Virus record (IMG/VR): IMGVR_UViG_3300010340_000980
Direction: 5' to 3' (one strand)
Source of the DNA: an uncultured virus (IMG/VR IMGVR_UViG_3300010340_000980)
Lineage: Duplodnaviria; Heunggongvirae; Uroviricota; Caudoviricetes
Length of the DNA stretch: 64,000 nucleotides
Made by a program: the position numbers and the translations under genes. A model generated the notes under the pieces. It was not told where the DNA came from. It did not search any database and saw nothing but the letters and a program-made list of their open reading frames with translations. Within the stretch, counting starts at the first letter, position 1; each line of letters opens with the position of its first letter. Shown here piece by piece: positions 13,690 through 29,258 of this stretch.

Positions 13690-13851
13690 ATGGCTCACAT
13701 ACAAAGGTTTAATGAAGAGTTTGATGATTATATAGAAACAGTCACAAGATATATTAACTCTCATAAAGAATATAAGAATATGGATGTTGATGATGTTATA
13801 GAAGAATTGAAAAAAGAAAAACTGTTGAAGAATTATATACCCATGAACTAA
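13690..13851 (+). CDS. small ORF truncated by fusion into a half hairpin
   Basis: MAHIQRFNEE... (53 aa); AATATATA upstream; stop lies inside the half repeat. Confidence 0.5.
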   Translation: MAHIQRFNEEFDDYIETVTRYINSHKEYKNMDVDDVIEELKKEKLLKNYIPMN

Positions 13852-13879
13852 ATAAAAAACTTACATATACGCCTTGTTA
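13835..13879. repeat. attC-like site, right half only
   Basis: atatac..gaactaaataaaaaacttacatatacgccttGTTA, nearly identical to right halves of the sites at 15312 and 21724. Confidence 0.75.
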
Positions 13880-13908
13880 TGTGTTAGTAAAAAAAATAAA
13901 AACTTATT

Positions 13909-14229
13909 ATGAAACATATTAGAAAATTTAACGAATCCGAAAGTTTAGATAAAACTATATTCTCAGGACAGACTAAAAATGGTTGGAAATATAATATAAT
14001 AACAATTAACGATTCAAGAGATGAATTACAATTAACAACTGAAGATGGTGTGGAACTAGATGCTAGTGAAATGTTACACGAAGCGGTTGATGCTTATATT
14101 AATGGAGATGCCAGCACTAAAGGATTTTTAATTGATGTTCAAGACATAACAGAAGCGTATGATAAGATGTATGAACTTATGGACATGGGTTCCAGTCTTG
14201 ATGGATTAGTAGATATGGAGGATATTTAA
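13909..14229 (+). CDS. cassette gene, hypothetical (MKHIRKFNES N-terminus)
   Basis: 106 aa between GTTATGTGT (13876) and ACACATAAC (14249). Confidence 0.75.
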   Translation: MKHIRKFNESESLDKTIFSGQTKNGWKYNIITINDSRDELQLTTEDGVELDASEMLHEAVDAYINGDASTKGFLIDVQDITEAYDKMYELMDMGSSLDGLVDMEDI

Positions 14230-14245
14230 TTTTTTTTATTACACA

Positions 14246-14370
14246 TAACGGTTCTCGGCTTTGCGATGGTGGGGTTTCAAGGCACAAATGTTCAACCCAC
14301 AACTAATGTTTAATAGAATTACAAATGATGAATTTACAACTTCCGCCCCACTATTGCAAAACCGATGTTA
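14246..14370. repeat. attC-like hairpin
   Basis: TAAC ggttc tcggctttgcgatggtgggg ... ccccactattgcaaaaccga t GTTA. Confidence 0.85.
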
Positions 14371-15302
14371 TGCGTAGTGTTTTAGTCCACGCTGATTGCT
14401 TTGATGTGTTTCCATATATTGCTGATAAAAGTGTTGATATGATTTGTTGCGACCTTCCTTATGGAACAACCGCTTGTGCTTGGGATGTAATTATACCATT
14501 TGACAAACTTTGGAATGAGTATAAAAGGATAATAAAAGATAAAGGCGTAATTGTATTATTTGGAAGTGAACCATTTTCTTCATTGTTAAGAACTTCTAAT
14601 TTAGACTGGTATAAATATGATTGGATTTGGGAAAAGAATAATGCAGGGAATTTCCAATTAGTTAAATATCAACCATTAAAGATACACGAATCTATATCTG
14701 TATTTTATAATGAAAATCCTGATATGGAATTTGCTAATATTATGCTTGAAAATATGAAACGATTAAAATTGAAAAATATTGATGTATCAAAATTGGAATT
14801 ATCAAGAACAGGTGGAATGACTGGTTGGGTAACAAATAAATTGAATGGTTCACAATTACCAACAGCCGAACAATGGGATAAAATTTGCAACTTATTTGGA
14901 ATTGAAAACAAGTATTATGAAATTTTAAGTACGGTAAAAAGAGTTACATACAACTTGGATTTAGACGATACAGACATTATTTGCTCAAATAAAGGTAAAG
15001 CAGGAAGCTTAGGGCATCTATCAAGTGAAAGTAAAAGAGATAACTATATACAAACAAAGACAGGTTATCCAAAAAGTATTTTAAAATATGATAGAGAAAA
15101 TGGATTACACCCAACACAAAAACCTTTGGAGCTTATGAAATACTTAATTAAAACCTACTCAAACGAAAATGATGTAGTAATGGATAATTGTATGGGTAGC
15201 AATACAACAGGATTAGCTTGTAAAGAGTTAAATCGTCAATACATAGGAATTGAAAAAGACAAAAATTATTACGATGTTTCGGTTAGCAGGGTGCTGTCTT
15301 AA
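14325..15302 (+). CDS. cassette gene: N4/N6 DNA methyltransferase (beta class) with inserted HTH-like segment
   Basis: DLPY, WIWEK, HPTQKP, DNCMGSNTTG, IGIEKD; alternative start at 14370 inside GTTATG. Confidence 0.88.
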   Translation: MMNLQLPPHYCKTDVMRSVLVHADCFDVFPYIADKSVDMICCDLPYGTTACAWDVIIPFDKLWNEYKRIIKDKGVIVLFGSEPFSSLLRTSNLDWYKYDWIWEKNNAGNFQLVKYQPLKIHESISVFYNENPDMEFANIMLENMKRLKLKNIDVSKLELSRTGGMTGWVTNKLNGSQLPTAEQWDKICNLFGIENKYYEILSTVKRVTYNLDLDDTDIICSNKGKAGSLGHLSSESKRDNYIQTKTGYPKSILKYDRENGLHPTQKPLELMKYLIKTYSNENDVVMDNCMGSNTTGLACKELNRQYIGIEKDKNYYDVSVSRVLS

Positions 15303-15311
15303 CATTACGCA

Positions 15312-15399
15312 TAACGTCTGGTGTATATGTAGGTTTTTAACTCTAAACTTTAATATATACTCTTGAACTAAATAAAAAACTTACATATACACCTTGTTA
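15312..15399. repeat. attC-like hairpin (AATATATA in loop)
   Basis: TAAC..ggtgtatatgtaggttttt...aaaaacttacatatacacc tt GTTA. Confidence 0.85.
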
Positions 15400-15424
15400 T
15401 GTGTTAGTAAAAATATTAAATTAT

Positions 15425-16069
15425 ATGAAATATATTAGATTATTTGAAAACCTGATAGCTAATCAAGAATTAATAGATTATATCAAAAAATTTGATATTC
15501 AAAAGATAAAATTACCATTTTCAAAAAAAGAATATGAATCTTTCATACACAATCTAAGTCCTGATAGATATGATGAAACTGGTTATTTCAGAGATTCTGA
15601 GTATTATAATGGGTTTTTATATAATGGTGAAGAATATTGTAAAGAAGTAACATCTGATTATGATTATCTAAAATTAGTTAAATACTTATTTGACTATAAT
15701 AACAATTTAAAATTTTATGATTTAGGGTGTGGAATAGGAACTCTTCTATATTTTGTAAAGGTAATTGGTTATAAAAATCCAGTCGGGGTTGAATTCCAAT
15801 CGGAATTAAAAGAGTTTCACAAGAAACTTAATTTGGATGTTATATATGGAGATCTACTCAAAATGGATTTATCTTTTTTGAAAGATGCTGATGTTATTTA
15901 TTTATATAAACCGATTTATGATGATTCATTAGCAAATAGTTTGATTGATAAAATACTTAAAAAAACTAAAGAAGGAGTCATAATTATTTATTGTAATCCG
16001 GACGATTACTTTTTTGATAGAGAGATTATTTCACCTTCAAATTTGAACCAATATATTTTAATAAAATAA
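15425..16069 (+). CDS. cassette gene: class I SAM-dependent methyltransferase
   Basis: FYDLGCGIG, GVE, GDLL; ATG at 15425 gives MKYIRLFEN. Confidence 0.75.
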   Translation: MKYIRLFENLIANQELIDYIKKFDIQKIKLPFSKKEYESFIHNLSPDRYDETGYFRDSEYYNGFLYNGEEYCKEVTSDYDYLKLVKYLFDYNNNLKFYDLGCGIGTLLYFVKVIGYKNPVGVEFQSELKEFHKKLNLDVIYGDLLKMDLSFLKDADVIYLYKPIYDDSLANSLIDKILKKTKEGVIIIYCNPDDYFFDREIISPSNLNQYILIK

Positions 16070-16085
16070 TATTTTTTATTACACA

Positions 16086-16133
16086 TAACGGTTGGGTGTA
16101 AAAAATCGTTTTAATGTTTTTTACACTTTGTTA
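16086..16133. repeat. short attC-like hairpin (48 bp)
   Basis: TAAC..gtgtaaaaaa...ttttttacac..GTTA. Confidence 0.8.
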
Positions 16134-16163
16134 TATGAATGTAAATTAAAAATTATACAAATT

Positions 16164-16361
16164 ATGAGAAAAGAATTAACACAAGAAGAGAAAAACTTTC
16201 ACAATTGGTTAGAACAATTTATTAAAGAATCTGGACATCAATGGGGATTTGGATTTTATGTAGAAACTATGGATGGGAAAGTTTTTCATCAAGGAACTGA
16301 TGAATATAAAGAGTGGTATGATGGTAAGTTAGAAGAGTATAAACAAACTCATAATTTTTAA
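16164..16361 (+). CDS. cassette gene, hypothetical
   Basis: ATG at 16164 (MRKELTQEEK); cassette ends complementary over about 25 nt. Confidence 0.7.
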   Translation: MRKELTQEEKNFHNWLEQFIKESGHQWGFGFYVETMDGKVFHQGTDEYKEWYDGKLEEYKQTHNF

Positions 16362-16372
16362 TTTATTTCATA

Positions 16373-16462
16373 TAACGGTTGGGTGTATATGTAGGTTTTT
16401 AACTCTAAACTTTAATATATATACCACTGAACTAAATAAAAACTTACATATACACCTTGTTA
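16373..16462. repeat. attC-like hairpin (AATATATA in loop)
   Basis: Same family as the 15312 and 21724 sites. Confidence 0.85.
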
Positions 16463-16520
16463 TGTGTAAGTAAAAAAAAATAAGTATGTAATTTATTTTA
16501 AAAACTAAAAATTAAATAAG

Positions 16521-16688
16521 ATGGAAAAAATTAAAGAAAAACTTGAAGAAAAAATAGCAATTAGAAAATCTATTGAAGATAGAATTCATGCTGATATTAG
16601 AAATGGAAAAGATTTGGTTAAAAAAGACTTAGATGCTATTTTTGCTTTAAGTTTAGTGATAACTACATTAGAAGAATTGTTAAAATAA
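16521..16688 (+). CDS. cassette gene, 55 aa hypothetical
   Basis: MEKIKEKLEEKIAIRKSIEDRIH...LEELLK, translated by hand. Confidence 0.6.
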   Translation: MEKIKEKLEEKIAIRKSIEDRIHADIRNGKDLVKKDLDAIFALSLVITTLEELLK

Positions 16689-16699
16689 ATTATTACTTA

Positions 16700-16823
16700 T
16701 AACGGTTGGGTGTATATGTAGTGTGAGATTAGAAAGACTAAACATCACTTAACCGATGAACTTAATTAGAAGAACAAATGTTGAATATACCACCAAACCA
16801 CACATTACATATACACCTTGTTA
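16700..16823. repeat. attC-like hairpin
   Basis: TAACggttgggtgtatatgtagtgtg...cacattacatatacaccttGTTA; same family as 18625 and 20484. Confidence 0.85.
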
Positions 16824-16938
16824 TGTGTAGGTGTGATTATTAACTGATGAACTTAAATCGAAGAAATAAAGAAAATTTTAGAAAAAAGAGGGAGGGAAAT
16901 TTTTATTCCTTATATTTGTATATAAATAATATAAAAAA

Positions 16939-17274
16939 ATGACAAAAGACTATTACAAAAATTTAATTGATAAATATATTGAGGAAGATTTTAATGGAAC
17001 TGATAAGTTGAGTTCTGTTTCTGCTTTATGGATATCCGATTCTGAAATTGGCTATAATGATAGACAAGAATTGATGATGTATATTGCTAAAATATGTATA
17101 GATGGATTAAAGTCACATGGTATTAGTAAATTAGATGAAATGGTTTCAAATCCACTTGAAAGTTCAACTAATATAGATAATATGATCGAACAACATGATA
17201 ATATGATTGATAATATTATAGACAACTTAGAAAAATCTTCAGATTCAAAAAAAGATATATTTAATTGTAATTAA
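16939..17274 (+). CDS. cassette gene, hypothetical
   Basis: 111 aa; TATATTTG at 16911. Confidence 0.7.
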   Translation: MTKDYYKNLIDKYIEEDFNGTDKLSSVSALWISDSEIGYNDRQELMMYIAKICIDGLKSHGISKLDEMVSNPLESSTNIDNMIEQHDNMIDNIIDNLEKSSDSKKDIFNCN

Positions 17275-17284
17275 TTTATTTGAA

Positions 17285-17485
17285 ATGAAAGCTATAATTT
17301 TAGATAACTATCCACCTTACTTAACTCCGGGTAAATTATATGAAATAAAGGGACAATCTCAAATTGATCCGAACATTTATTTCGTAGTAACGGATGATGG
17401 ATCTAGAACTTCAGTTGATATTTCAAATCTAAAATTTTCAGACCAAATAAGAAATGAAAAAATAGAAAGTATATTAGTATTTTAA
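17285..17485 (+). CDS. cassette gene, hypothetical (second gene of a two-gene cassette)
   Basis: 66 aa, ends IRNEKIESILVF. Confidence 0.7.
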   Translation: MKAIILDNYPPYLTPGKLYEIKGQSQIDPNIYFVVTDDGSRTSVDISNLKFSDQIRNEKIESILVF

Positions 17486-17559
17486 AAATGCGCGGTGAAG
17501 TTTTTCTAAAATTTTTCTAACACAGAAGTTAATTCAGAGGACAGAACCACACTTACACA

Positions 17560-17690
17560 TAACGGTGACAGATATATTTCAGTTTTTTATTTTTAATATA
17601 TACAAATAAAATTTAATATGAAAAAAGAACTTAAAAACTTACAGACGTTTGAACAAAGAACAGATAAAAAATTGAATATATCTGTTGTTA
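17560..17690. repeat. attC-like hairpin containing promoter motif and start of ORF
   Basis: TAACggtgacagatatatt...aatatatctgttGTTA; near-identical to the 20234 site. Confidence 0.85.
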
Positions 17691-17842
17691 TGAACAGTGT
17701 TTTAGGTGATTTGGAAAAATTGGTTTCTAAATACGATAAAGCTCAAAAGAAAGCAGTTGATGAATTTGATGATAATGTTAATTATGGAAAAGTTAGAGGA
17801 TTAACGGAAGCAATTGAAGTGGTAAAGAAACATTGTTCATAA
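17618..17842 (+). CDS. cassette gene, hypothetical; N-terminus encoded in the hairpin
   Basis: MKKELKNLQTFEQRTDKKLNISVV|MNSV...; stop codon is the TAA of the next TAAC. Confidence 0.7.
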   Translation: MKKELKNLQTFEQRTDKKLNISVVMNSVLGDLEKLVSKYDKAQKKAVDEFDDNVNYGKVRGLTEAIEVVKKHCS

Positions 17843-17926
17843 CGATTGCAAATATATGTAGGTTTTTGTAACAAATGCTTAAAATTTACGTATAACTTAA
17901 TAAAAACTTACATATATTTGTTGTTA
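17840..17926. repeat. attC-like hairpin (TATATTTG in right arm)
   Basis: TAACgattgcaaatatatgtagg...cttacatatatttgttGTTA. Confidence 0.85.
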
Positions 17927-17984
17927 TGTGTATGTATTTTAATTTTTTGTGCGTTGGAAATATTAATTTAAAAATAGAAACAAA

Positions 17985-18194
17985 ATGGAGAAATTTATTG
18001 AAGTAAACGGAAACTGGTTATTTAGTGATGAACATTTTTTATTGACTGAACGAGGTTGGTTAAAAGCAAAAGAACTACAAAATGGTGATAAAGTTATTGG
18101 TGTGAAAGGCGAATCAACAATAAAAAATATTATAGAATGTGGAGAACGACCAGATGCACCTATTGTTGGTGAAACTGGTGCGGTGGAAAATTAA
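17985..18194 (+). CDS. cassette gene: Hint/intein block-B-like fragment
   Basis: SDEHFLLTERGWLKAKELQNGDKVI. Confidence 0.55.
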   Translation: MEKFIEVNGNWLFSDEHFLLTERGWLKAKELQNGDKVIGVKGESTIKNIIECGERPDAPIVGETGAVEN

Positions 18195-18205
18195 AATATT
18201 ACATA

Positions 18206-18292
18206 TAACGTTTTGCGGCTTGGCGAAGGCTGCCTAACGGAAATTTCAAAGTTCGCAGAATGTTTATGGCAGATTTTGCCAAACCGCTGTTA
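18206..18292. repeat. attC-like hairpin
   Basis: TAACgttttgcggcttggcgaa...ttttgccaaaccgctGTTA. Confidence 0.85.
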
Positions 18293-18339
18293 TGTGCTGG
18301 GCGGTTTATCAGCACTAAATTTTATTTAAATGAAACGAA

Positions 18340-18615
18340 ATGAAAACGATTTTTATTTGGATGTTAAGAAAATACGCAAATACCGAAAAAGGTAGAATTG
18401 AAATTATGCGTATAATGGATGATAAGGTTAGTGATAATTATAGTGAGCAAACTTTATATGGAAATGTTTACAACTACTTTATTGAGTTTGTAATGGCAAA
18501 TCCATTTGTAGTAAAATGCACATTTCAAAACGATAAAGAAAGTTTGCGTATTTTAAAAAGCGGTATTGAAAAATCGTTTGATGAAGCAATTGGTTATATT
18601 GAAAACGAAAAGTAG
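18340..18615 (+). CDS. cassette gene, hypothetical
   Basis: 91 aa between GTTATGTGC and GCACATAAC. Confidence 0.7.
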   Translation: MKTIFIWMLRKYANTEKGRIEIMRIMDDKVSDNYSEQTLYGNVYNYFIEFVMANPFVVKCTFQNDKESLRILKSGIEKSFDEAIGYIENEK

Positions 18616-18624
18616 CCTTGCACA

Positions 18625-18747
18625 TAACGGTTGGGTGTATATGTAGTGTGAGATTTGAAACACTAAACCTCACTTAACCAATGAACTTGATTAGAAGTGG
18701 AAACATGAATATATCACAGAACCTCACATTACATATACACCTTGTTA
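18625..18747. repeat. attC-like hairpin
   Basis: Same family as 16700 and 20484. Confidence 0.85.
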
Positions 18748-18866
18748 TGTGTAGGTGTGGCTAATTAAGGTAGAATGTTTAATCGGAGAATTGAACAAAA
18801 ATTTTAAAAGAAAAAGAAGGGTGGGAAATTTAATTTAAAATATTTATATATAAAGAAAATAAATAT

Positions 18867-19367
18867 ATGAAAGATTTGAGAAAATTTATTAAAACCACTA
18901 TACGAGAATTTTTGAATGAAAGCAATTTAGATGGTTATCATTTAGAACCATATCATAAATCATCATACCACAAATATGAGAATGAAAATGATTTAGAATT
19001 TAAGATTGTTAGAGGAAAGGATGGTAAATTGTGGGGTATTGATGTTTATACAACACCATATAAAACATTAATAGGAACTATTGAACTTTCATATAGAAGT
19101 GAAATTATATCATTTGAAGAACAAAGAGATGGACAACCTAATGTTGGTAATATATCAGTTGATGAAAGATTTAGAAATCAAGGATTTGCTAAAATTTTAT
19201 ATAAAAAACTAATATCTGAACTTAAAAAAGATGGTTATAAAAAACTATTTGCTGGTTTAACACGAAATTCTATGTATGTAAATAATATATGGGATAAACT
19301 TAAAGATGGTGAAATAGAGGTGGATTATGATGGAAGAATAAAAACTATCGAATTTATGAATTTATAA
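18867..19367 (+). CDS. cassette gene: GNAT-family acetyltransferase
   Basis: ISVDERFRNQGFAKILY acetyl-CoA binding motif; N-terminus ...IREFLNES. Confidence 0.75.
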   Translation: MKDLRKFIKTTIREFLNESNLDGYHLEPYHKSSYHKYENENDLEFKIVRGKDGKLWGIDVYTTPYKTLIGTIELSYRSEIISFEEQRDGQPNVGNISVDERFRNQGFAKILYKKLISELKKDGYKKLFAGLTRNSMYVNNIWDKLKDGEIEVDYDGRIKTIEFMNL

Positions 19368-19439
19368 AAGTGGGTGGGTTTTTCTTTTAAAATTTTTAAC
19401 CGAAATGTTGATTAGAAGGATAAACTGAACACTTACACA

Positions 19440-19564
19440 TAACGTTCCTCGGATATATGTAGTTTTTTCTTAAATTGAAACACGAAACTTAAATAATATG
19501 GACAAATATAATAAGAACACAGAACTTGAAAATACAGATAAAAAATTACATATATCTGATGTTA
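19440..19564. repeat. attC-like hairpin containing start of ORF
   Basis: TAACgttcctcggatatatgtag...ttacatatatctgatGTTA. Confidence 0.85.
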
Positions 19565-19803
19565 GTGATAGTTCATCTACTCAAATGTGGAAAGACATCA
19601 AAAAGTGGATTATCATAATTTTTTTGTGGTTATCTATACTAATCTTTTCACTTATATTCTTTTATAATAAAACAATGATATTAAGTGGATGGATGTTGAT
19701 AACTGGATTAATAATGTGGTTAAAAGGAAAAGATTACGAAAAATGGTATTGGAAAAATTATGATAATATCAGAAAAGTTGAAAGTGATGTCTATTCTAAA
19801 TGA
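19498..19803 (+). CDS. cassette gene: membrane protein (2 predicted TM segments)
   Basis: Hydrophobic WIIIIFLWLSILIFSLIFF and MILSGWMLITGLIMWL; first 22 codons lie in the hairpin. Confidence 0.7.
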   Translation: MDKYNKNTELENTDKKLHISDVSDSSSTQMWKDIKKWIIIIFLWLSILIFSLIFFYNKTMILSGWMLITGLIMWLKGKDYEKWYWKNYDNIRKVESDVYSK

Positions 19804-19811
19804 ATTATCAC

Positions 19812-19889
19812 TAACGGTTGCAAATATGAGAAGTAAATTTTTTCTATAAAAATAGATAAATCAAAATTTATTTCTTATATTTGTTGTTA
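19812..19889. repeat. attC-like hairpin (TATATTTG in right arm)
   Basis: TAACggttgcaaatatgagaagtaaatttt...aaaatttatttcttatatttgttGTTA. Confidence 0.85.
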
Positions 19890-19930
19890 TATTTGTTGTT
19901 TAATTTATTAACCTTAAAAATAGAAAAAAT

Positions 19931-20230
19931 ATGATACGATTTAAATTAGAAGATGAAAACAATAACTATAAACAATATAGTATTGAAATTGATTTTGTAG
20001 ATGGTGAAGAATTTGATGATTGGTCTTATGATAATAAGGACTTTGAAGATTTCATGGAACAAATGGAGACAGGACATGATAAATGGAATGGTGTTCATGA
20101 TGGGTCGGGTGGTGTTGATAATGATGGTGTTGAGTATGTATCATTTTCATCATATGAAATACAAGATTTTAATACTGCTATAAAGTTATGGAAAGATTTT
20201 TTCAGAAAACTCAATAAATTAAACAATTGA
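19931..20230 (+). CDS. cassette gene, acidic hypothetical protein
   Basis: 99 aa, D/E-rich. Confidence 0.7.
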   Translation: MIRFKLEDENNNYKQYSIEIDFVDGEEFDDWSYDNKDFEDFMEQMETGHDKWNGVHDGSGGVDNDGVEYVSFSSYEIQDFNTAIKLWKDFFRKLNKLNN

Positions 20231-20233
20231 ATA

Positions 20234-20363
20234 TAACGGTTGCAGATATATTTCAGGTTTTTATTTTAATATATACAAATAAACTTTAATATGAAAAAAG
20301 AACTTAAACATTTGAAAACATTTGAACAGAACACAGATAAAAACTTGAATATATCTGATGTTA
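20234..20363. repeat. attC-like hairpin containing promoter motif and start of ORF
   Basis: Near-identical to the 17560 site. Confidence 0.85.
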
Positions 20364-20476
20364 GCAAACAACGTGAACTGTTAATTTTTTTCTTAAATCA
20401 CTTAAATAAAAATCTAAATTTGGGTGTTAGTGAAATGTGGGTTGATGATTTTATACGCATCGGTAAAAAAAATTAA
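20291..20476 (+). CDS. cassette gene, hypothetical; N-terminus encoded in the hairpin
   Basis: MKKELKHLKTFEQNTDKNLNISDV|SKQREL... Confidence 0.65.
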   Translation: MKKELKHLKTFEQNTDKNLNISDVSKQRELLIFFLNHLNKNLNLGVSEMWVDDFIRIGKKN

Positions 20477-20483
20477 TAGTTGC

Positions 20484-20606
20484 TAACGGTTGGGTGTATA
20501 TGTAGTGTGAGATTTGAAACACGGAACTTGACTTAACTACTGATGTTGATTAGAATGATGAACTTGAATACAACACAGAACCTCACATTACATATACACC
20601 TTGTTA
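20484..20606. repeat. attC-like hairpin
   Basis: Same family as 16700 and 18625. Confidence 0.85.
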
Positions 20607-20658
20607 TGTGTTAGTAAAAAACTATAATTTAATATATACTAAAAAAACTTTTAAAATT

Positions 20659-20865
20659 ATGGGAGATAAAATTAAAAAATTCAATGAACATTATGTTGAG
20701 AAAACTTTCAACGAAAAACAAGTCGTTTCAATGTTGGTAGATGCGGTTATGACATCTATGGGTGATGAGTGGATACCACAAGAAGATGAAAATTTTAAAA
20801 GTTTTTTAAGAGGGTATGGACTACTGAGTATATTCCTCGATGAATATGGTTATGATGATTATTAA
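20659..20865 (+). CDS. cassette gene, hypothetical (MGDKIKKFNE)
   Basis: ATG at 20659 downstream of AATATATA. Confidence 0.7.
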   Translation: MGDKIKKFNEHYVEKTFNEKQVVSMLVDAVMTSMGDEWIPQEDENFKSFLRGYGLLSIFLDEYGYDDY

Positions 20866-20882
20866 TAGTTTTTTATTACACA

Positions 20883-20971
20883 TAACGTTTTGGTGTATGA
20901 GAAGGTTTGCTTAGATGAACTTTCAAATTAACCACAAATGCTGATAGCAAACTTTCTTATACACCTTGTTA
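20883..20971. repeat. attC-like hairpin
   Basis: TAAC..ggtgtatgagaaggtttgct...agcaaactttcttatacaccttGTTA. Confidence 0.85.
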
Positions 20972-21126
20972 TGTGTAGGTGTGATTATTAACCGACAATC
21001 TTCAATCGAAGCACAGAAAAAAAGAAGGGGAAATATTTTTTATTTAAGAAATTATTACCTTTATAAATAAAAACAGGGAAACCGAAAACTGATTAGAGTA
21101 GGTAAATTAAAAAACAAAATAAAATT

Positions 21127-21642
21127 ATGGAAAAAACAATTTTTAAATGTAGTAAAATGAAAAAAGTAAAAGTAACTATGATGACACTAATGATGTGTTT
21201 AATGACAAGTGTTGTTTTTGGACAGTGGACATATAAAACAATAAATAGTGAATTTGACGGTTCGTTCAAAAAAGCATATACACAAACAAATAATAGGGGT
21301 TATTTAATGATGGAAGTTGGTGAACCAACTTATAACGACACTATAAAAATTAATAGACCGTTTTTAGCATTAGGCGGTTCTTATTTTTGTGATGACTATA
21401 CTTATATTGATTTTGTATTGGTTGTTAATGGTGTGAATAAAAAATATGAATTAAAAGGTACTAAATCAAGTGATAGTAGAATGTATTATTTTGATGAATC
21501 AATATGGACAGATGAATTTATTAAAGATTTTAAAAGTGCATCAAAATGTTCCATCAGGGTTAATCAAGATTACTGTACAGATGATTATTATCAATTTGTT
21601 TTTTCTGGTTCAACAGCAGCTTATAACTTTATAACAAAATAA
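21127..21642 (+). CDS. cassette gene: exported protein with Sec signal peptide
   Basis: MKKVKVTMMTLMMCLMTSVVFG|QW, Gln after the cleavage site as is typical in Bacteroidota. Confidence 0.7.
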   Translation: MEKTIFKCSKMKKVKVTMMTLMMCLMTSVVFGQWTYKTINSEFDGSFKKAYTQTNNRGYLMMEVGEPTYNDTIKINRPFLALGGSYFCDDYTYIDFVLVVNGVNKKYELKGTKSSDSRMYYFDESIWTDEFIKDFKSASKCSIRVNQDYCTDDYYQFVFSGSTAAYNFITK

Positions 21643-21723
21643 AAAAAATATGTGCGGTGGGTTCTTTTTTCTAAAATTTTCATAACTAAATGTTAATTCG
21701 GAGAACAGAACCACACTTACACA

Positions 21724-21813
21724 TAACGACTGGGTGTATGTGTAGGTTTTTTAACTACAAACTTTAATATATACTCATGAACTAAATAAAAAACTTACAT
21801 ATACACCTTGTTA
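21724..21813. repeat. attC-like hairpin (AATATATA in loop)
   Basis: Same family as 15312 and 16373. Confidence 0.85.
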
Positions 21814-21851
21814 TGTGTTAGTAAAAAAATTAGATAAAATAAAACAAAATT

Positions 21852-22181
21852 ATGAGACATATTAAAAAATTTAACGAAGGATTAGAAGATCACATAATAG
21901 ATGGTGAAAGAACCGATAGTGAATGGGGTAAAGGAAAATATGATAAAGCACATTTATTTGCAGATAAACTAAAAGACGGATTTGCTATAAATATATCAAG
22001 AGAAAATGTGGATAAATTTTTTGATATATTAAAGGACATAACTTGGATAGAATTACCAAAGAGTTCAAAACATTACACAAGTGATAGATACTATTTTGTT
22101 TTATTTGGTAATAGATTATTACACTCTGATAAACCTTATTTTGGTGGTAATGAGTTAGAGGTTTATACACCTTCTATCTAA
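21852..22181 (+). CDS. cassette gene, hypothetical (MRHIKKFNE)
   Basis: 109 aa. Confidence 0.75.
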   Translation: MRHIKKFNEGLEDHIIDGERTDSEWGKGKYDKAHLFADKLKDGFAINISRENVDKFFDILKDITWIELPKSSKHYTSDRYYFVLFGNRLLHSDKPYFGGNELEVYTPSI

Positions 22182-22196
22182 TTTTTTTATTAAACA

Positions 22197-22283
22197 TAAC
22201 GGTTGGGTGTATATGTAGTTTTTATTTGGAAATATCAAAACTTATTCCCACCTTTGTAAAAAAATTACATATACACCTTGTTA
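22197..22283. repeat. attC-like hairpin
   Basis: TAACggttgggtgtatatgtagttttt...aaaaattacatatacaccttGTTA. Confidence 0.85.
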
Positions 22284-22354
22284 TGTGTAGTAATTTTGTG
22301 GGTGGTTTTTTAACTAAAAATTAATTTCCAAATATTTATATATAAAAGAAAACT

Positions 22355-22711
22355 ATGAGTAAAGAAATGAGAGAACAAATCAACAAGGTAAAGAATTTTG
22401 GACAATTCTTGAATGAAAATAAAAAACCTAAAGATAGGTTTTGGTATCATATTACAAGAAATGAGTTGTTTGATAAAGTTGAAAGATATTACAATGAACA
22501 TCAAGATGGATATGTAAAATTGAATTTTGAAATAGAACACGATGGTAGTAAACTACACTTCAATGAATTATATAAACGAGATGGTGGTATCTATGGTGAT
22601 GATTTTGAATTTTATTTCAAAGATGAAAATGGAAAACAATCATCTTGGTATCTTTCAAGACTTGATAAAGAAATTCTTTACGATATTGTAAACAAAATGG
22701 TGGGTGGGTAA
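22355..22711 (+). CDS. cassette gene, hypothetical (...KNFGQFLNE)
   Basis: 118 aa. Confidence 0.75.
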   Translation: MSKEMREQINKVKNFGQFLNENKKPKDRFWYHITRNELFDKVERYYNEHQDGYVKLNFEIEHDGSKLHFNELYKRDGGIYGDDFEFYFKDENGKQSSWYLSRLDKEILYDIVNKMVGG

Positions 22712-22725
22712 AAAATTATTACACA

Positions 22726-22850
22726 TAACGGCTGACAATAACCGTCAGGTGGGGATAAAATGCACCGACCTTTCAACCTGACGTAAAGCATATTAGGTGC
22801 AGATAGCTTCAATTTGGCACATCGCCCCCACTTGCGGTTATTGTTTGTTA
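22726..22850. repeat. attC-like hairpin
   Basis: TAACggctgacaataaccgtcaggtgggg...ccccacttgcggttattgtttGTTA. Confidence 0.85.
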
Positions 22851-22877
22851 TAGGGCGTTTTTTAATTCAAATCAAAA

Positions 22878-23096
22878 ATGGACTATTCAATCGTAGACAC
22901 AAAAGGCAACATTGTAGGAACAATAAGAGAAACCTACCCTGTTAGATTTGTTGACCCAGAAAGGGAGTATGATGTTAATTATCTCGCACCACACCAAAGT
23001 GCTAAAAAACAAAGAGAGGAAGGTTTCTTTACCTTAAAAGGTAAGGATTTAACTCAAAAACAAATATGGCAACTGTTTCTATTAGGGATGCTCTAA
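22878..23096 (+). CDS. integrase-proximal cassette gene, hypothetical
   Basis: 72 aa between GTTATAGGGCGTTTT and AAAATGCCCTATAAC. Confidence 0.7.
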   Translation: MDYSIVDTKGNIVGTIRETYPVRFVDPEREYDVNYLAPHQSAKKQREEGFFTLKGKDLTQKQIWQLFLLGML

Positions 23097-23161
23097 AATG
23101 CCCTATAACTATTATATATCTATACCTCAACTTTTTTACCTTATTTTACTATACTTTTTCT
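23095..23161. other. putative attI-like insertion site
   Basis: Last cassette end (CCCTATAAC, 23109) is not followed by a hairpin; the integrase 5' region follows directly. Confidence 0.6.
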
Positions 23162-23962
23162 ATGAAAAAGACAGACTATTACGAAATTTGTGAACAAAAA
23201 TTGAAATATTTAAATTATTCAGATAGGACAATTAAGTCCTATCTTTTTTATATAAATCAATTTTTATCTACAGTAAATATAGCACCTACCAGACTTACCT
23301 CTTCCGATTTTCAACTCTATTTGGATAGATATCAATTCACTTCAGTTTCTCAACAAAATCAAGTTATCAACGCTATCAGATTTCTTTATAAATTTGGCTT
23401 AAATAAAAAATATGATAAAGTCAGTTTCAAAAGACCAAAATCTGAAAAGAAATTACCCAGAGTTATTGATGGGGAATTTATAAAAGAAAGACTTGGTAAA
23501 ATTGTTAATATAAAACATAAAGCAATACTTACACTGACATATTCAGTTGGTCTCAGAGTTTCTGAAATAGTCAACCTTAAAATAGAAGATATTGACTCCA
23601 AAAGAATGTTAATACATATCAAAAATGCTAAAGGAAGAAAAGATAGAATTGTTCCTTTATCCGATAATGTTTTACTATTATTAAGAGAATACTTTAAACA
23701 ATACAGACCAAAAGAATATCTTTTTAATGGTCAGAATTCAACACAATATTCAATAGTATCATGTCAAGCAATTTATAAAAAATACATAGATCAGAATTCA
23801 TCCATTCACACCCTTAGACACTCATCATTTACAAATCTATTAGAAAACGGAACAGATATCAGGATTATACAGAAGATTGCAGGTCACTCAAACGTAAAAA
23901 CTACTGAAATATACACTCATGTATCTAATCAAATACTTCAAAAAGTAAATTTACCAATTTAA
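23162..23962 (+). CDS. IntI/XerD-like tyrosine recombinase (putative cassette integrase)
   Basis: GLRVSE, KNAKGRKDRIVPL, HTLRHS, AGHSNVKTTEIYTHV (intact R-K-H-R-H-Y); N-terminal SAM-like domain; ATG at 23162 preferred to 23066. Confidence 0.9.
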   Translation: MKKTDYYEICEQKLKYLNYSDRTIKSYLFYINQFLSTVNIAPTRLTSSDFQLYLDRYQFTSVSQQNQVINAIRFLYKFGLNKKYDKVSFKRPKSEKKLPRVIDGEFIKERLGKIVNIKHKAILTLTYSVGLRVSEIVNLKIEDIDSKRMLIHIKNAKGRKDRIVPLSDNVLLLLREYFKQYRPKEYLFNGQNSTQYSIVSCQAIYKKYIDQNSSIHTLRHSSFTNLLENGTDIRIIQKIAGHSNVKTTEIYTHVSNQILQKVNLPI

Positions 23963-23967
23963 AACTT

Positions 23968-24729
23968 TTACCAATTCAAATAATTCGCAAATTCCACAAT
24001 AAGGTATTGATATTCTTCGTCAATATCATTTATTGAATTTTGTCTTTTTAAATTATCTTGAGACCAAAGTGGTCTTAAATTATCAAGTCTATTCACAATG
24101 CTCGATGGGGTGTCTTTTTTGAATTTTGATATCGGAATAATATGATCAACATGCCATTCACCATAATTTTCCCAAGACATATTTTCTAAAAATCTTTTTT
24201 CAAGATGTATTTTTAATTCATTATAATCATAACCTAGTAAATTTTCAGTTGATGATTCCTTTTCAATTTTTAATTGTTCTAATGTTCTTCTAAGAATTCT
24301 TCTCCAGATAAATTGGTGTTTTCTCTTTTGGTAAGATCTTTTTTTGATTTCTCTTTTATTATCAGTAATTTTGTTTAGAACATCTTTATTTTCCTCATAA
24401 TATTTTTTCCTTTTCTCAAGTATATCTTCTCTATTATTGTAATAATATTCCAATTTTTTACTTTTAAGTCTCTCGTGGTGCCTTTCCGAATATCTACGAT
24501 CTCTTTCTCTTTTCTTTTCTTTATTAAGGTTTTGATATATTACTTCTTTATTTTTTTCGTAGTATTCTTTATTTTGACTGCGAAAATGTTCATGTTTGCT
24601 ATAATAATATTCACTTCTTTTTATTGCAACACATTCATTACATTCAGACATATATCCATCTTTATGCCTTTTAGATTTTCTAAAAAAATCAAATTCTTTT
24701 TTTATTTTACAATTTTTACAAACTTTCAT
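23968..24729 (-). CDS. HNH endonuclease
   Basis: N-terminal CxxC...CxxC, WHVDHIIP...NLRPLWSQDN. Confidence 0.8.
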   Translation of the reverse strand: MKVCKNCKIKKEFDFFRKSKRHKDGYMSECNECVAIKRSEYYYSKHEHFRSQNKEYYEKNKEVIYQNLNKEKKRERDRRYSERHHERLKSKKLEYYYNNREDILEKRKKYYEENKDVLNKITDNKREIKKRSYQKRKHQFIWRRILRRTLEQLKIEKESSTENLLGYDYNELKIHLEKRFLENMSWENYGEWHVDHIIPISKFKKDTPSSIVNRLDNLRPLWSQDNLKRQNSINDIDEEYQYLIVEFANYLNW

Positions 24730-24799
24730 ACAACTTTATTATTTTTAAAGTATATATTAAATGTTTTCAGGTCTAATGAATGATAAATAATAATAATAA

Positions 24800-25534
24800 A
24801 TGGAATATAAAAACTTTAAAAAATATGCTCTAAGTGAAGGCATATCATCAATGAATTTAAATTACTACGAGAATCAAGTTCAATCATCTATGACACCTTA
24901 TATCTTAGAGGAAAGAGAAATGCGTGTTACTCAGATGGATGTTTTTAGTAGATTACTTAGAGATAGGATAATATGGGTATCTGGTCCAGTTAATCAAAAT
25001 ATGTCTGACATTGTTCAAGCACAATTACTTTTTCTTGATTCTGTTGAGAAAAAAGATATTTCACTTTATATTAATTCACCTGGTGGTTCCGTTCTTTGTG
25101 GACTTGGTATAGTCGATCTAATGAATTATATCAGTTCTGATGTTGCTACAATCAATATTGGTATGTGTGCTTCGATGGCAAGTATTTTGTTAAGCTCTGG
25201 TACCAAAGGTAAAAGATCATCACTCGTATATTCAAAAGTTATGATCCATCAAGTTTCGTCGGGGTCGTCGGGTCACATCGAGGATAATCGTATAAGCCAA
25301 ATGGAAGCAGAAAAATATAACTACATACTTTTTAAAATGCTGTCTAAAAATACAGGTAGAAATTTTGATGAAGTTTTAGAAGGAGCTAGACGAGATCATT
25401 GGTTAAATTCTGATGAAGCTCTTAAGTTTGGACTTATCGATGAAATAATTGGTTTAGATAAAACATCAAGTATATCAAATCATCTTGATGGATTTGAAGA
25501 TTACTACAATAAAGAAATTTTGAAAAAATTCTAA
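24800..25534 (+). CDS. clpP: ATP-dependent Clp protease proteolytic subunit
   Basis: DVFSRLLRDRII, YINSPGGSV, CASMAS, MIHQ, RDHWL. Confidence 0.93.
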   Translation: MEYKNFKKYALSEGISSMNLNYYENQVQSSMTPYILEEREMRVTQMDVFSRLLRDRIIWVSGPVNQNMSDIVQAQLLFLDSVEKKDISLYINSPGGSVLCGLGIVDLMNYISSDVATINIGMCASMASILLSSGTKGKRSSLVYSKVMIHQVSSGSSGHIEDNRISQMEAEKYNYILFKMLSKNTGRNFDEVLEGARRDHWLNSDEALKFGLIDEIIGLDKTSSISNHLDGFEDYYNKEILKKF

Positions 25535-26568
25535 TTGAATAGGTAACTCCAACCTTTCCAATCTTCATAAAATGAATCTGGATGTCCTGGTATTCTGAGT
25601 TTTTTAGTCCTACCTTTACAAAAACTTTTATACTCTTTAATACTTTCAATAGAATTGAGTTTAATTAATTTTTTACATTCTTCTAATGAAAGATATTCAA
25701 GTTTTTTATTTCTTGTATTTCTGCCAAAAAATTCATGCCAGGATACCCATTCGTTTTTATATTTACTTGGTGGTGAAGAAGGAACATTATGTGGTTTTTT
25801 AAAATTAATCCATTTCTTTTGAGTGTCAATTTTATTGACTTCGGCAAAAATTTTACACTCATCATATGTCATAAATTCTATTAATTGATTTTGAATGCGT
25901 CCGTTCGATAAAAAATGTCCCCAAGAAATCCATCCTCTTTTACTATAAAACCTATTTGGCTTTTTTGGAAATAATTCAATCGGAATTAATCCTAAATTAT
26001 ATTTTTCAATCCAATCAGCACCTGATTTTATATTCATATTTTTAATATATTCAATAGCATCAATATATGATAGGTAGTTTTTAGTTATTTCTATATTATG
26101 TAACTTACCAGTTCCTAAAAATTCACCCCAAGTTTTAAATTCGGGAAAAACACGAGGTGGATATTTGGGTATAAATTCTGGCTTTTCTACTTTTTTCCAT
26201 TTTTCTAAAGTGTCAATTCCCAAACAATTCTTTTTTACCCATTCTTTACATTCCTCATATGTTATAGAATATAACTTACCACACTGACCACCAGCTCTCT
26301 TATTAAAGAGATTTTCAAATCTAGATATCCAATAAATCTCTCTTTCTCTCCAATTATGCTCTGTACATTCTTCTAAAATATTCATTTTAATTTCAAAACC
26401 ATTATTCAAAACGTTTTGAATCCATTTAACTTTTTCCTGATTAACGTTTGTTCTTTTTAAATGTGTATAAATTCTGGTCTTTGGATTGTTTGTTTTACCA
26501 ACATATCTTATTTTATCTTCTTTACCTACTTCATATAAACCATAAATGTATATAATTTTCATAAACAT
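25531..26568 (-). CDS. GIY-YIG homing endonuclease with C-terminal P-x-x-P...W..F repeats
   Basis: IYGL...RYVGKT..R...H, REIYWI; four repeat units. Confidence 0.75.
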   Translation of the reverse strand: MFMKIIYIYGLYEVGKEDKIRYVGKTNNPKTRIYTHLKRTNVNQEKVKWIQNVLNNGFEIKMNILEECTEHNWREREIYWISRFENLFNKRAGGQCGKLYSITYEECKEWVKKNCLGIDTLEKWKKVEKPEFIPKYPPRVFPEFKTWGEFLGTGKLHNIEITKNYLSYIDAIEYIKNMNIKSGADWIEKYNLGLIPIELFPKKPNRFYSKRGWISWGHFLSNGRIQNQLIEFMTYDECKIFAEVNKIDTQKKWINFKKPHNVPSSPPSKYKNEWVSWHEFFGRNTRNKKLEYLSLEECKKLIKLNSIESIKEYKSFCKGRTKKLRIPGHPDSFYEDWKGWSYLFN

Positions 26569-26749
26569 AATTTTATTTTTACCTATAATTATTAAAAAGT
26601 CTAAAAGAAATTACGGAGATAAGTATAACAAGGAAAATGTTAATGTTCAATTAAACAGAGAATTAGTTGAAAAAATTAAATTAAGAATAAAGAATAAACA
26701 GAGTATAAAATCCTATATAGAATCTCTTATCAACGAAAATTTAATTTAA
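26546..26749 (+). CDS. small putative DNA-binding (RHH-like) protein
   Basis: NVNVQLNRELVEKIK...SIKSYIESLI; start uncertain. Confidence 0.35.
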   Translation: MYIIFINIILFLPIIIKKSKRNYGDKYNKENVNVQLNRELVEKIKLRIKNKQSIKSYIESLINENLI

Positions 26750-26754
26750 TTACT

Positions 26755-26799
26755 AATAAATAATCCTTTTCTAATATATACAGAAAAGGATTATTTATT
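26755..26799 (+). promoter_or_regulatory. 18-bp perfect hairpin with AATATATA in the loop, immediately upstream of the NUDIX start
   Basis: aataaataatccttttct-aatatatac-agaaaaggattatttatt; ATG at 26802. Confidence 0.7.
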
Positions 26800-26801
26800 T
26801 T

Positions 26802-28357: not shown

Positions 28358-28557
28358 TCTATTCTTTGCCATTCACTAAAAGTTGCTATCTTAACACCTT
28401 CTACATCTTGTATAAAAAATAACATCTTATTTACACCTTTTAGATCTTCATAATCTGTCCAATTTTCTATTTTCTCAAGAACTAATTTGAAAAATGGAGA
28501 ATCATTTTTTGATAATTCAGATTTTAAGTATTTAAAATATTCTTCTACCGGCTTCAT
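28354..28557 (-). CDS. hypothetical protein
   Basis: 67 aa ORF. Confidence 0.55.
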   Translation of the reverse strand: MKPVEEYFKYLKSELSKNDSPFFKLVLEKIENWTDYEDLKGVNKMLFFIQDVEGVKIATFSEWQRID

Positions 28558-29035: not shown

Positions 29036-29069
29036 TGATTATATATAAATTTTTCATATATTTGCCATT

Positions 29070-29258
29070 ATGGACATTAAAGAAAAACTTGAACTAAATA
29101 AAACTATTCGAAAATATGAAGGAACTAATGCCTTCATCTTGTCTCTGAAAAAGAACCTTGCCTCAAAATATTGTAAAAAAGAATCTTTAGATGGTAAAGA
29201 ATACAAAGTTCTTTCTGAAAAACAATATCTTGCTGCTAAGTCCACACTTCAATCATGA
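29070..29258 (+). CDS. hypothetical protein
   Basis: 62 aa; TATATTTG upstream. Confidence 0.6.
   Translation: MDIKEKLELNKTIRKYEGTNAFILSLKKNLASKYCKKESLDGKEYKVLSEKQYLAAKSTLQS

What the first reader, a model, noticed from the sequence alone, without database searches (positions are those of the whole stretch)
22726..23161. Inverted architecture: genes point toward the integrase and each hairpin lies upstream of its own gene
Seen: the final cassette end (CCCTATAAC, 23109) has no hairpin after it and abuts the integrase leader. On the minus strand the layout reads classically (integrase, G|TTATAGG attI-like site, cassette, attC), but all cassette genes are antisense to that direction. Hairpin families co-vary with the downstream flank: sites at 13835, 15312, 16373 and 21724 are each followed by GTTATGTGT(T/A)AGTAAAAA. 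Inference: the mobile unit is hairpin plus downstream gene, new cassettes insert next to the integrase, and a shared Pc promoter at attI cannot drive expression.
Basis: partly seen in the sequence, partly recalled or inferred. Interest (0 to 1): 0.72.

Follow-up and report, generated by a model that had tools for sequence, protein, structure and literature searches.

The report
Phage integron-like array with inverted cassettes
A large phage stores about twenty small accessory genes as swappable cassettes next to its own short recombinase, laid out like a bacterial integron but with every gene turned round, so that each folding DNA hairpin sits in front of its own gene and travels with it.

Summary
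Window 13.8-23.1 kb is an array of 17 complete hairpin sites (TAAC, 5-nt spacer, stem, loop, stem, 2-nt spacer, GTTA) and about 20 small + strand ORFs. It ends at a hairpin-less TAAC (23106-23109), 52 nt before a 266-aa Xer-like tyrosine recombinase (23162-23962, +) that lacks the IntI-specific insertion.

In 62 of 65 distinct relatives, variable DNA meets a constant TAAC|TATTATATAT docking site at that spot. Cassettes shared between unrelated arrays start at the TAAC in front of a hairpin and end at the TAAC behind the gene. The mobile unit is therefore hairpin plus downstream gene. The same cassette lies next to the integrase in one phage and inside the array in another.

Ten cultured Polaribacter phage Freya isolates form a nested series that differs at the integrase end. 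The gene-sense strand folds better in 316 of 336 sites.

The chemistry, the direction of events and expression are inferred, not shown. Variation is not confined to the integrase end.

I found no paper on this system; CALINs reported in phages are the nearest. This scan has noted the same system before, in at least 43 other genomes.

The parts
13835..23109 (+). Cassette array: a truncated first hairpin, 17 complete hairpin sites and about 20 small + strand ORFs.
13835..13884 (+). Distal end of the array: right half only of a hairpin (loop part, right stem arm, TT, GTTATGTGT).
   Evidence: it matches the right half of the 15312 site, and the left half is missing.
14246..14375 (+). Hairpin site 1. 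The DNA methylase ORF starts in its loop (14325) or at the ATG in its right core (14370).
15312..15404 (+). Hairpin site 2
   Evidence: z -5.0 on the + strand, -3.7 on the - strand.
16086..16138 (+). Hairpin site 3 (short, 48-nt span)
16373..16467 (+). Hairpin site 4
16700..16828 (+). Hairpin site 5 (long-loop family)
17560..17695 (+). Hairpin site 6. Its right arm lies inside ORF 17618-17842, so the start codon and about 23 codons are within the hairpin.
17840..17931 (+). Hairpin site 7
18206..18297 (+). Hairpin site 8
18625..18752 (+). Hairpin site 9 (long-loop family)
19440..19569 (+). Hairpin site 10. Its right arm lies inside ORF 19498-19803.
19812..19894 (+). Hairpin site 11
20234..20368 (+). 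Hairpin site 12. Its right arm lies inside ORF 20291-20476.
20484..20611 (+). Hairpin site 13 (long-loop family, followed by the TAGTAAAAA flank)
20883..20976 (+). Hairpin site 14
21724..21818 (+). Hairpin site 15
22197..22288 (+). Hairpin site 16
22726..22855 (+). Hairpin site 17, which heads the last cassette. Its right core GTTATAGGGC is complementary to the cassette's end.
   Evidence: z -2.9 on the + strand, -1.4 on the - strand.
22878..23096 (+). ORF of the last cassette, next to the integrase (72 aa, no family).
23101..23109 (+). End of the last cassette. CCCTA is cassette-specific; TAAC (23106-23109) is the shared crossover core.
23110..23161 (+). Constant half of the docking (attI-like) site, TATTATATATC..., and the integrase leader. 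Unstructured.
23162..23962 (+). Tyrosine recombinase, 266 aa. Xer-like, with the R..HxxR..H..Y motifs and without the IntI insertion.

Best explanation
This is a phage-borne gene-cassette system that works like an integron but with the cassette genes reversed.

Shown:
- Each cassette runs, on the + strand, from the C of one TAAC core to the TAA of the next. It holds in order a 5-nt spacer, the hairpin, TT, GTTA plus a leader, the gene, and an AATTnnnnATAA arm.
- The array ends at a docking site made of the last cassette's arm, TAAC, and a constant TATTATATAT segment. That segment lies about 50 nt before a short Xer-like recombinase gene reading the same way as the cassettes.
- Whole cassettes of this form are exchanged between phages with different backbones. 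They occur both next to the docking site and inside arrays.

Inferred:
- The recombinase binds two AATTnnnYATAW-like arms. Folding of the gene-sense strand brings them together across a bulged central region of 10 nt against 7 nt.
- It cuts after TAA and exchanges that one strand with the double-stranded docking site or with another hairpin. Replication then resolves the product, as in integrons.
- Because genes face the integrase, they would be expressed by read-through from the co-directional phage genes upstream, or from signals in their own hairpin and leader. No promoter at the docking site would serve them.
For: Anatomy:
- There are 17 sites with one build.
- There are 144 distinct 12-nt stem arms in 291 sites. 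Stem positions 13-16, which the finder did not require, pair in 74-87% of sites against 44-65% for arms shuffled among sites.
- Folds score z -2.9 to -5.0.

Family-wide layout:
- Arrays lie upstream of the recombinase in the 80 viral loci and the window. The commonest spacers are 5/2 and 5/1. Site density is 30-fold higher upstream than downstream.
- ORFs are on the + strand in 259 of 341 intervals, on the - strand in 2, and ambiguous in 80.

Docking site:
- The motif is present in 62 of 65 distinct upstream regions.
- Window homology to relatives begins at 23104-23106.

The unit:
- Linkage counts are 28 against 2, and block ends fall at TAAC.
- L020:2634-3593 equals L031:583-1542 (960 nt, 99.9%). 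The block starts at TAAC plus hairpin and ends at TATAAC. It is followed by the docking site in L020 and by another hairpin in L031.
- L017:4004-4280 behaves likewise against L031 and L020. L060/L078, L004/L054 and L010/L012 show the same boundaries.
- These cassettes are 97.5-100% identical where the integrase genes are 73-87% identical, apart from the L010/L012 pair, whose integrase genes are identical.

Cassette signature:
- The flanks of one gene are complementary at 7.3 of 10 positions beyond the core. The two flanks of one hairpin match at 3.6 of 10.
- Three ORFs begin inside the hairpin upstream of them. On this reading each stays whole within one cassette.

Strand:
- The + strand fold is more stable in 316 of 336 sites. 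G.T oppositions number 595 against 99 A.C.

Cultured phages:
- Freya_1, 2, 5, 9 and 10 form a nested series.
- Freya_6 has a novel insert at the integrase end.
- Freya_8 has an internal deletion between two AAC sites.

Enzyme:
- The catalytic motifs are present.
- 28 aa stand where IntI4 has 76.
Against: - No recombination, circular cassette or transcript was observed.
- The + strand folding bias would also arise if the hairpins act in mRNA, because the + strand is the transcribed sense.
- The three extra spacer bases lie on the 5' arm of the + strand. In classical attC sites, as I recall, the extrahelical bases lie on the 3' arm of the recombined strand. By that analogy alone the - strand would be the active one.
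- 25 of 50 left ends and 35 of 52 right ends of homology blocks lie more than 25 nt from a mapped TAAC core.
- Some shared genes lack a shared hairpin (L016/L017, L027/L048). Some shared hairpin-leader modules carry different genes (L022/L054, L042/L078).
- Only 31 of 143 pairs with similar downstream flanks also have similar hairpins.
- Two pairs with the same backbone differ distally, not at the integrase end.
- In Freya (integrase 39% identical) the stem-loop just 5' of the crossover stays when the proximal cassette is absent.
Confidence: 0.8

Rival explanations
1. Classical integron polarity. The hairpin belongs to the gene upstream of it, crossover is at G|TTA on the right of each hairpin, and the integrase happens to sit at the old end of the array.
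For: - On the + strand the order gene, RYYYAAC-like core, hairpin, GTTRRRY-like core looks classical.
- The longer spacer lies on the 5' arm of the + strand, as the extra bases do in the top strand of classical attC sites (recalled).
- In Freya the stem-loop stays with the upstream side.
Against: - The end next to the integrase has no hairpin and is the variable one.
- Only 3 of 52 right block ends lie near GTTA, against 16 exactly at TAAC.
- Hairpins go with the upstream flank in 2 pairs, against 28 with the downstream flank.
- Three ORFs would be split between two cassettes.
Confidence: 0.05
2. No dedicated cassette recombinase. The hairpins are RNA-level or regulatory elements in a hyperplastic phage region. 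Genes are shuffled by homologous recombination between repeats, as proposed for the promoter-stem-loop modules of T4-type phages (recalled, not read here). The integrase serves lysogeny, and the constant site is its attP.
For: - The + strand (mRNA sense) fold bias.
- Hairpin-leader modules are shared by different genes.
- The authors of the Freya paper took the integrase as a sign of a possible temperate life (passages).
- The recombinase is Xer-like, not IntI.
Against: - Joints between cassettes and the constant site share only TAAC, which is too short for homologous exchange, yet they are exact in 62 of 65 regions.
- The stems co-vary through 144 arm sequences while the core and the two arms stay fixed.
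- Arrays lie only on one side of the recombinase gene.
- The hairpins are not followed by T runs: 4 terminator-like sites against 1.9 expected, and one of the four lies inside a hairpin site (22821-22838, in site 17).
Confidence: 0.1
3. The hairpins are selfish palindromic insertions (MITE- or REP-like) that spread between pre-existing genes, so there are no cassettes at all.
For: A few hairpin families recur many times within and between arrays.
Against: - Whole hairpin-plus-gene blocks move between contexts with exact borders.
- Each gene is bracketed by its own inverted repeat.
- The sites are confined to one array beside the recombinase.
Confidence: 0.03

Closest known systems
Integrons (IntI, attI, attC cassettes), especially sedentary chromosomal integrons with uniform attC sites
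   Same: - A tyrosine recombinase gene lies beside a docking site and an array of mostly one-gene cassettes.
- The cassettes are bounded by imperfect hairpins with AAC/GTT cores.
- The stems are conserved in structure, not in sequence.
- The flanks of each cassette are complementary.
- Cassettes are shared between arrays.
   Different: - The recombinase lacks the IntI insertion and scores below both NCBIfam integron-integrase cut-offs.
- Genes face the docking site, and the hairpin precedes its gene.
- The integrase is co-directional with the array and downstream of it.
- The gene-sense strand is the better folder.
- The bulge is a 5-nt against 2-nt spacer.
- The host is a large phage.
'Inverted integrase' integrons such as that of Treponema denticola (recalled; only the title and abstract of PMC3607928 were seen, in the listing)
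   Same: The integrase and the cassette genes read in the same direction.
   Different: There, as I recall, the integrase lies upstream and reads towards attI, and the cassettes read away from it. Here the cassettes read towards the docking site, and the integrase lies downstream of them.
Clusters of attC sites without integrase (CALINs) reported in phages, including Polaribacter phage P12002L (Qi et al. 2023, PMC9892861; abstract and section 3.4 read, passages on P12002L)
   Same: - attC-like sites and methylase cassettes occur in phages of marine Bacteroidota.
- One P12002L site was recombined by IntI1 in their assay.
   Different: - They report no cognate recombinase, docking site or reversed polarity. 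They describe the P12002L sites as divergent in direction.
- P12002L gave no match to the Freya integrase at E up to 1e-30.
- I did not read their supplementary tables.
Xer recombinases with dif sites, and dif-flanked resistance modules of Acinetobacter plasmids (PMC7399989, listing only)
   Same: - The closest solved relatives of the enzyme are XerA proteins.
- The arms end in ATAA, like Xer arms (recalled).
   Different: Here the sites are long folded hairpins in a one-sided array beside the gene. They are not 28-bp duplex sites.

Membership tests
Integron | IntI-type integrase with the extra segment in the catalytic domain | tested here: not met
   - TIGR02249 scores 160.9 bits against a cut-off of 265, in two stretches.
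- Against IntI4 (2a3v) the query has 28 aa (179-206) where the chain has 76 (182-257).
- The query is colinear with XerA 4a8e.
Integron | attC sites: imperfect hairpins with paired outer and inner boxes and an AAC/GTT core | tested here: met
   17 sites in the window and 336 distinct sites in the family..
Integron | attI docking site next to the integrase gene, where cassettes join | tested here: met
   The pattern variable DNA, TAAC, constant TATTATATAT occurs in 62 of 65 distinct regions. The same cassette lies at that site in one array and inside another.
Integron | Cassette made of a gene followed by its attC, reading away from attI and driven by Pc | tested here: not met
   Blocks start with the hairpin and end behind the gene. 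259 of 261 decidable ORFs face the docking site.
Integron | Recombination of one folded strand, with polarity set by extrahelical bases | not testable with these tools
   Indirect only: + strand fold bias in 316 of 336 sites, and a constant 5/2 spacer asymmetry.
Xer/dif chromosome-dimer resolution | XerA, XerC or XerD equivalog acting on a single short duplex dif site | tested here: not met
   XerA model 184.8 bits against a cut-off of 220; XerC and XerD models far below their cut-offs. The sites are arrays of 48-131-nt hairpins.
Promoter-stem-loop shuffling modules of T4-type phages (recalled) | Repeat with an early promoter and a stem-loop before each gene, exchanged by homologous recombination without a dedicated recombinase | tested here: inconclusive
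   - A hairpin before each gene is met.
- Sigma-70-type promoter matches are at the chance level, 82 against 80.8. That scan does not cover Bacteroidota promoters.
- Exact TAAC joints and the adjacent recombinase argue against this family.

The most novel reading that the evidence does not exclude
Bacteroidota phages run their own integron-type gene-capture system, either a separate invention or an early branch. A plain Xer-like recombinase without the IntI insertion recombines hairpins folded from the coding strand. Each cassette then carries its recombination site, and often its start codon, in front of its gene as a self-contained expression unit. Phages with integrase genes only 73-87% identical trade these units. 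If so, the IntI insertion is not needed for folded-site cassette recombination, and current integron finders miss a whole class.
Probability: 0.6. Interest if true: 0.88.

Novelty: new variant of a known kind. Interest (0 to 1): 0.8.

Why it matters
- Integrons are held to be bacterial devices defined by IntI and by promoter-led cassettes. Here the same logic appears in viruses, with another branch of the enzyme family and the opposite cassette polarity.
- It gives phages a way to swap small accessory genes. In this window these include a DNA methylase, a second methyltransferase and an acetyltransferase. Most of the rest are of unknown function.
- Cultured phage-host pairs exist (Freya on Polaribacter), so the mechanism can be tested at the bench.
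- The recombinase fails the IntI model, so I expect tools that require IntI to file such arrays as integrase-less clusters or to miss them. I did not run such a tool.

Tried and rejected
- Rfam on 13000-24000 found no family for the hairpins. It gave only sub-threshold miRNA-like matches with E 0.1-0.7, and one near-threshold DUF805b match elsewhere.
- The sigma-70 promoter and terminator scan was at the chance level.
- No whole genome is held for the window.
The 22 runs listed were therefore never laid, and I draw nothing from them.
- Bacterial genomes: I examined 68 of the 80 fetched loci and left out the 12 whose match sits at a contig end.
  - Only L104 has an array (7 sites upstream).
  - Four more loci have one site each.
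  - By eye, six loci (L094-L098, L104) show the docking motif.
  - The other loci are a different kind of recombinase context.
- I first read the CCCCTATAAC in front of the Freya integrase as the same motif as the window's CCCTATAAC. The family alignment shows that only TAAC is shared, so I dropped this.
- I tried to decide hairpin linkage in Freya. The sites there are reduced, and the result is ambiguous.
- Three further sites in the window outside the array (26427, 36336, 62010) are weak, at 10 of 12 with odd spacers. I take them as chance.
- The scan's notebook holds nothing for this genome.

Full report
**Setting.** The window is AT-rich (22-39% GC, mostly about 27%) and looks like part of a very large phage genome.
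- It holds 15 tRNA genes in a row, PhoH, ClpP, RNase R, HNH and GIY-YIG endonuclease genes, and several huge ORFs without any Pfam family.
- No whole genome is held for it.
- Megablast of 23000-43000 against 50,697 phage records found only two short matches, in uncultured phages of about 635 kb.

**The observation.** From 13.8 to 23.1 kb the + strand carries about 20 small ORFs separated by 17 complete sites of one build.
- The build is nnnnATAAC, a 5-nt spacer (mostly GGTTG), a stem arm, a loop, the other stem arm, a 2-nt spacer (TT), then GTTATGTGT.
- Spans run from 48 to 131 nt.
- Three representative sites fold as single-stranded DNA with z-scores of -2.9, -5.0 and -3.0 on the + strand, and less well on the - strand.
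- The last cassette ends at CCCTATAAC (23101-23109). The next 52 nt up to the ATG at 23162 have no structure at all (MFE 0).
- Three corrections apply:
  - The site at '13835' is only a right half.
  - The TAGTAAAAA flank also follows a hairpin of another family at 20603.
  - Only TAAC, not CCCTATAAC, is the shared core.

**The recombinase.** ORF 23162-23962 encodes 266 aa with the Phage_integrase and SAM-like N-terminal domains.
- NCBIfam puts it between families. XerA scores 184.8 bits (cut-off 220). Integron integrase TIGR02249 scores 160.9 bits (cut-off 265), in two stretches that stop at model position 209 of 315.
- The best solved relatives are XerA of two archaea, then IntI4 of Vibrio cholerae.
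- The alignment to IntI4 breaks where IntI has its extra segment: 28 residues in the query stand against 76 in IntI4. The R, HxxR, H and Y motifs are in place.

**Relatives.** A scan of viral contigs returned 80 loci with 57-83% identical recombinases, on contigs of up to 362 kb.
- In the loci with enough upstream DNA, hairpin sites of the same build lie upstream of the recombinase gene.
- The totals are 353 sites in 443 kb upstream and 14 in 536 kb downstream.
- The commonest spacer classes everywhere are 5/2 and 5/1. Classes with the long spacer on the right turn up once in each of about eight loci, and I did not examine them.
- Of 341 intervals between hairpins, 259 hold a dominant + strand ORF and 2 a - strand ORF. 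Those 2 are the same cassette in two near-identical loci. The other 80 are too short or unclear.

**The docking site.** I aligned the DNA in front of the recombinase genes.
- The sequence left of a TAAC differs from locus to locus. The sequence to its right is conserved: TAT(T/C/A)ATATAT, then about 40-50 nt to the start codon.
- A match to TAACTATTATATAT with at most three mismatches and AAC intact is present in 62 of 65 distinct regions. The other three have degenerate versions.
- Homology between the window and its nearest relatives begins at 23104-23106.
- Among 14 pairs of loci whose docking site and integrase start are at least 93% identical:
  - 10 share no array block of 120 nt or more beyond the constant site;
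  - 2 are the same array;
  - 2 (L010/L012, L020/L021) share the proximal cassettes and differ further out.

- Flank linkage. I compared 328 distinct sites by their upstream flank, hairpin and downstream flank.
  - 28 pairs share the hairpin and the downstream flank only.
  - 2 pairs share the hairpin and the upstream flank only.
  - 3 pairs share all three.
  - Most similar hairpins (1,034 pairs) share neither flank.
  - Only 31 of 143 pairs with similar downstream flanks have similar hairpins. Hairpin families are therefore widely reused.
- Block ends. I took the 60 directional homology blocks of at least 200 nt and 85% identity between different arrays.
  - Left ends: 25 of 50 lie within 25 nt of a left-hand TAAC, 12 of them exactly at its T. 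Nine of 50 lie near a right-hand GTTA, all inside the conserved stem arm.
  - Right ends: 16 of 52 lie at the C of a TAAC or one base past it, and 3 of 52 near a GTTA.
- Clean cases.
  - A 960-nt block at 99.9% identity starts at TAAC plus hairpin and ends at TATAAC. The docking site follows it in L020, and the next hairpin follows it in L031.
  - A 277-nt cassette at 97.5% is followed by the docking site in L017 and by two different hairpins in L031 and L020.
  - L060/L078, L004/L054 and L010/L012 show the same boundaries.
  - The integrase genes of these partners are only 73-87% identical, except L010/L012, which are identical. Cassettes therefore move between backbones.
- Cases that do not fit neatly.
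  - Two shared genes lack a shared hairpin (L016/L017, L027/L048).
  - Two shared hairpin-leader modules carry different genes (L022/L054, L042/L078).
- No case shows a gene travelling with the hairpin behind it into a new context.

**Further signs.**
- Each gene is bracketed by its own inverted repeat. Beyond the core, the flanks of one gene match at 7.3 of 10 positions, and the two flanks of one hairpin at 3.6 of 10. The outer box would therefore re-form on circularisation, as in integron cassettes. This fits either polarity.
- In the window, three ORFs (17618, 19498, 20291) start inside the loop of the hairpin before them. They run through its right arm, which encodes ...TDK(K/N)L(N/H)IS.V. 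With the hairpin counted to the downstream gene, these ORFs are whole within one cassette.
- These hairpin-plus-N-terminus modules recur in many other arrays. The matches start at the TAAC.

**Strand.**
- The + strand fold is the more stable in 316 of 336 distinct sites, by 2.65 kcal/mol on average.
- Mismatched stem positions are G.T on the + strand 595 times and A.C 99 times.
- This fits recombination of the folded + strand cut after TAA on its 5' arm, which is what the docking-site joints require.
- It would equally fit a role of the hairpins in the mRNA.

**A model of the site.**
- Logos show a conserved arm AATTnnnnATAAC at cassette ends and a similar arm AATTnnnTATA in the right stem.
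- Folded, they face each other across a central region of about 10 nt on one side and 7 nt on the other. Five of these pair, and GGTTG against TT stays unpaired.
- The docking site offers the cassette-borne arm, TAAC and a constant AT-rich half.
- This resembles a Xer-type core site built by folding. That reading, together with single-strand exchange resolved by replication, is inference.

**Cultured phages.** The recombinase is 39% identical to the integrase of Polaribacter phages Freya_1 to Freya_10, which have 44.0-48.9 kb genomes.
- I compared seven of the ten isolates.
- They share the stretch up to a conserved gene and then carry 0 to 12 small genes, all facing the integrase.
- Freya_1, 2, 5, 9 and 10 are nested.
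- Freya_6 has a 440-nt insert, absent from Freya_10, next to the integrase.
- Freya_8 lacks an internal piece between two AAC sites.
- Every joint reads YYAAC|ACCCCTATAACAACAATAAG, about 40 nt before the start codon.
- The paper on these phages notes the size range and the integrase. In the passages I searched it says nothing of cassettes or hairpins. I did not read its supplementary files.
- The Freya sites are reduced. The stem-loop 5' of the crossover stays when the proximal cassette is missing, so Freya does not settle the linkage question.

**Cargo.**
- One cassette is an N6/N4 DNA methylase, one a SAM methyltransferase and one a GNAT acetyltransferase.
- The other cassette ORFs match no Pfam family (where I scanned them) or PHROG family.

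**What is known.**
- Searches for integron terms together with phage, hairpin, tyrosine recombinase and jumbo phage, and for six phrasings of 'phage integron', found no description of this system.
- The nearest is Qi et al. 2023, who report integrase-less attC clusters in phages, among them Polaribacter phage P12002L.
- Smyshlyaev et al. 2021 note that the IntI insertion is not fully conserved in their integron-like subgroup (passage).
- Earlier notes of this scan describe the same system in at least 43 other genomes, including its reversed cassettes and start codons in hairpins. I read them after my own tests, and they agree.

**Verdict.** The finding is real and is a family-wide architecture. 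The chemistry, the order of events and expression remain to be shown.

Noticed in passing
window 21072-21104 (+): Match to the DUF805b RNA motif (RF02914) at 34.5 bits, just under its gathering score of 35.6, E 9e-07. It lies in the leader of cassette ORF 21127-21642.
   Followed up: no
window 58998-61489 (-): Row of 15 tRNA genes. An IS1595-type transposase gene lies at 55978-56922.
   Followed up: no
window 16820-17568: A two-gene cassette (ORFs 16939-17274 and 17285-17485) is bracketed by an inverted repeat of about 70 nt, much longer than the usual flank repeat. The loops of the long-loop hairpins (16700, 18625, 20484) hold a direct copy of part of that leader.
   Followed up: partly
window 13106-13602 (-): Two small - strand ORFs lie between RNase R and the truncated first hairpin. 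One is a weak DUF7230 match (25.8 bits, below the 27-bit cut-off). They may mark where the distal end of the array was cut.
   Followed up: no
window 23968-24729 (-) and 25531-26568 (-): HNH-like (weak, 19.5 bits) and GIY-YIG endonuclease genes lie right after the recombinase gene. Freya also has an HNH endonuclease gene directly after its integrase.
   Followed up: no
L023 and L065, 8-10 kb downstream of the recombinase: Second clusters of 6-8 sites of the same build lie downstream of the recombinase gene, possibly further arrays.
   Followed up: no
Polaribacter phages Danklef_1 to Danklef_5 (MT732458-62): Only residues 96-271 of the Freya integrase match (90% identity), under features annotated 'hypothetical protein | integrase'. 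The genomes vary from 47,186 to 48,177 bp. This may be a broken integrase beside a variable region.
   Followed up: no
L104 (Bacteroidales MAG contig, 109 kb): This is the only array among the 68 bacterial-genome loci examined: 7 sites upstream of a 47% identical recombinase with the docking motif. It could be a prophage or a binned phage contig.
   Followed up: no
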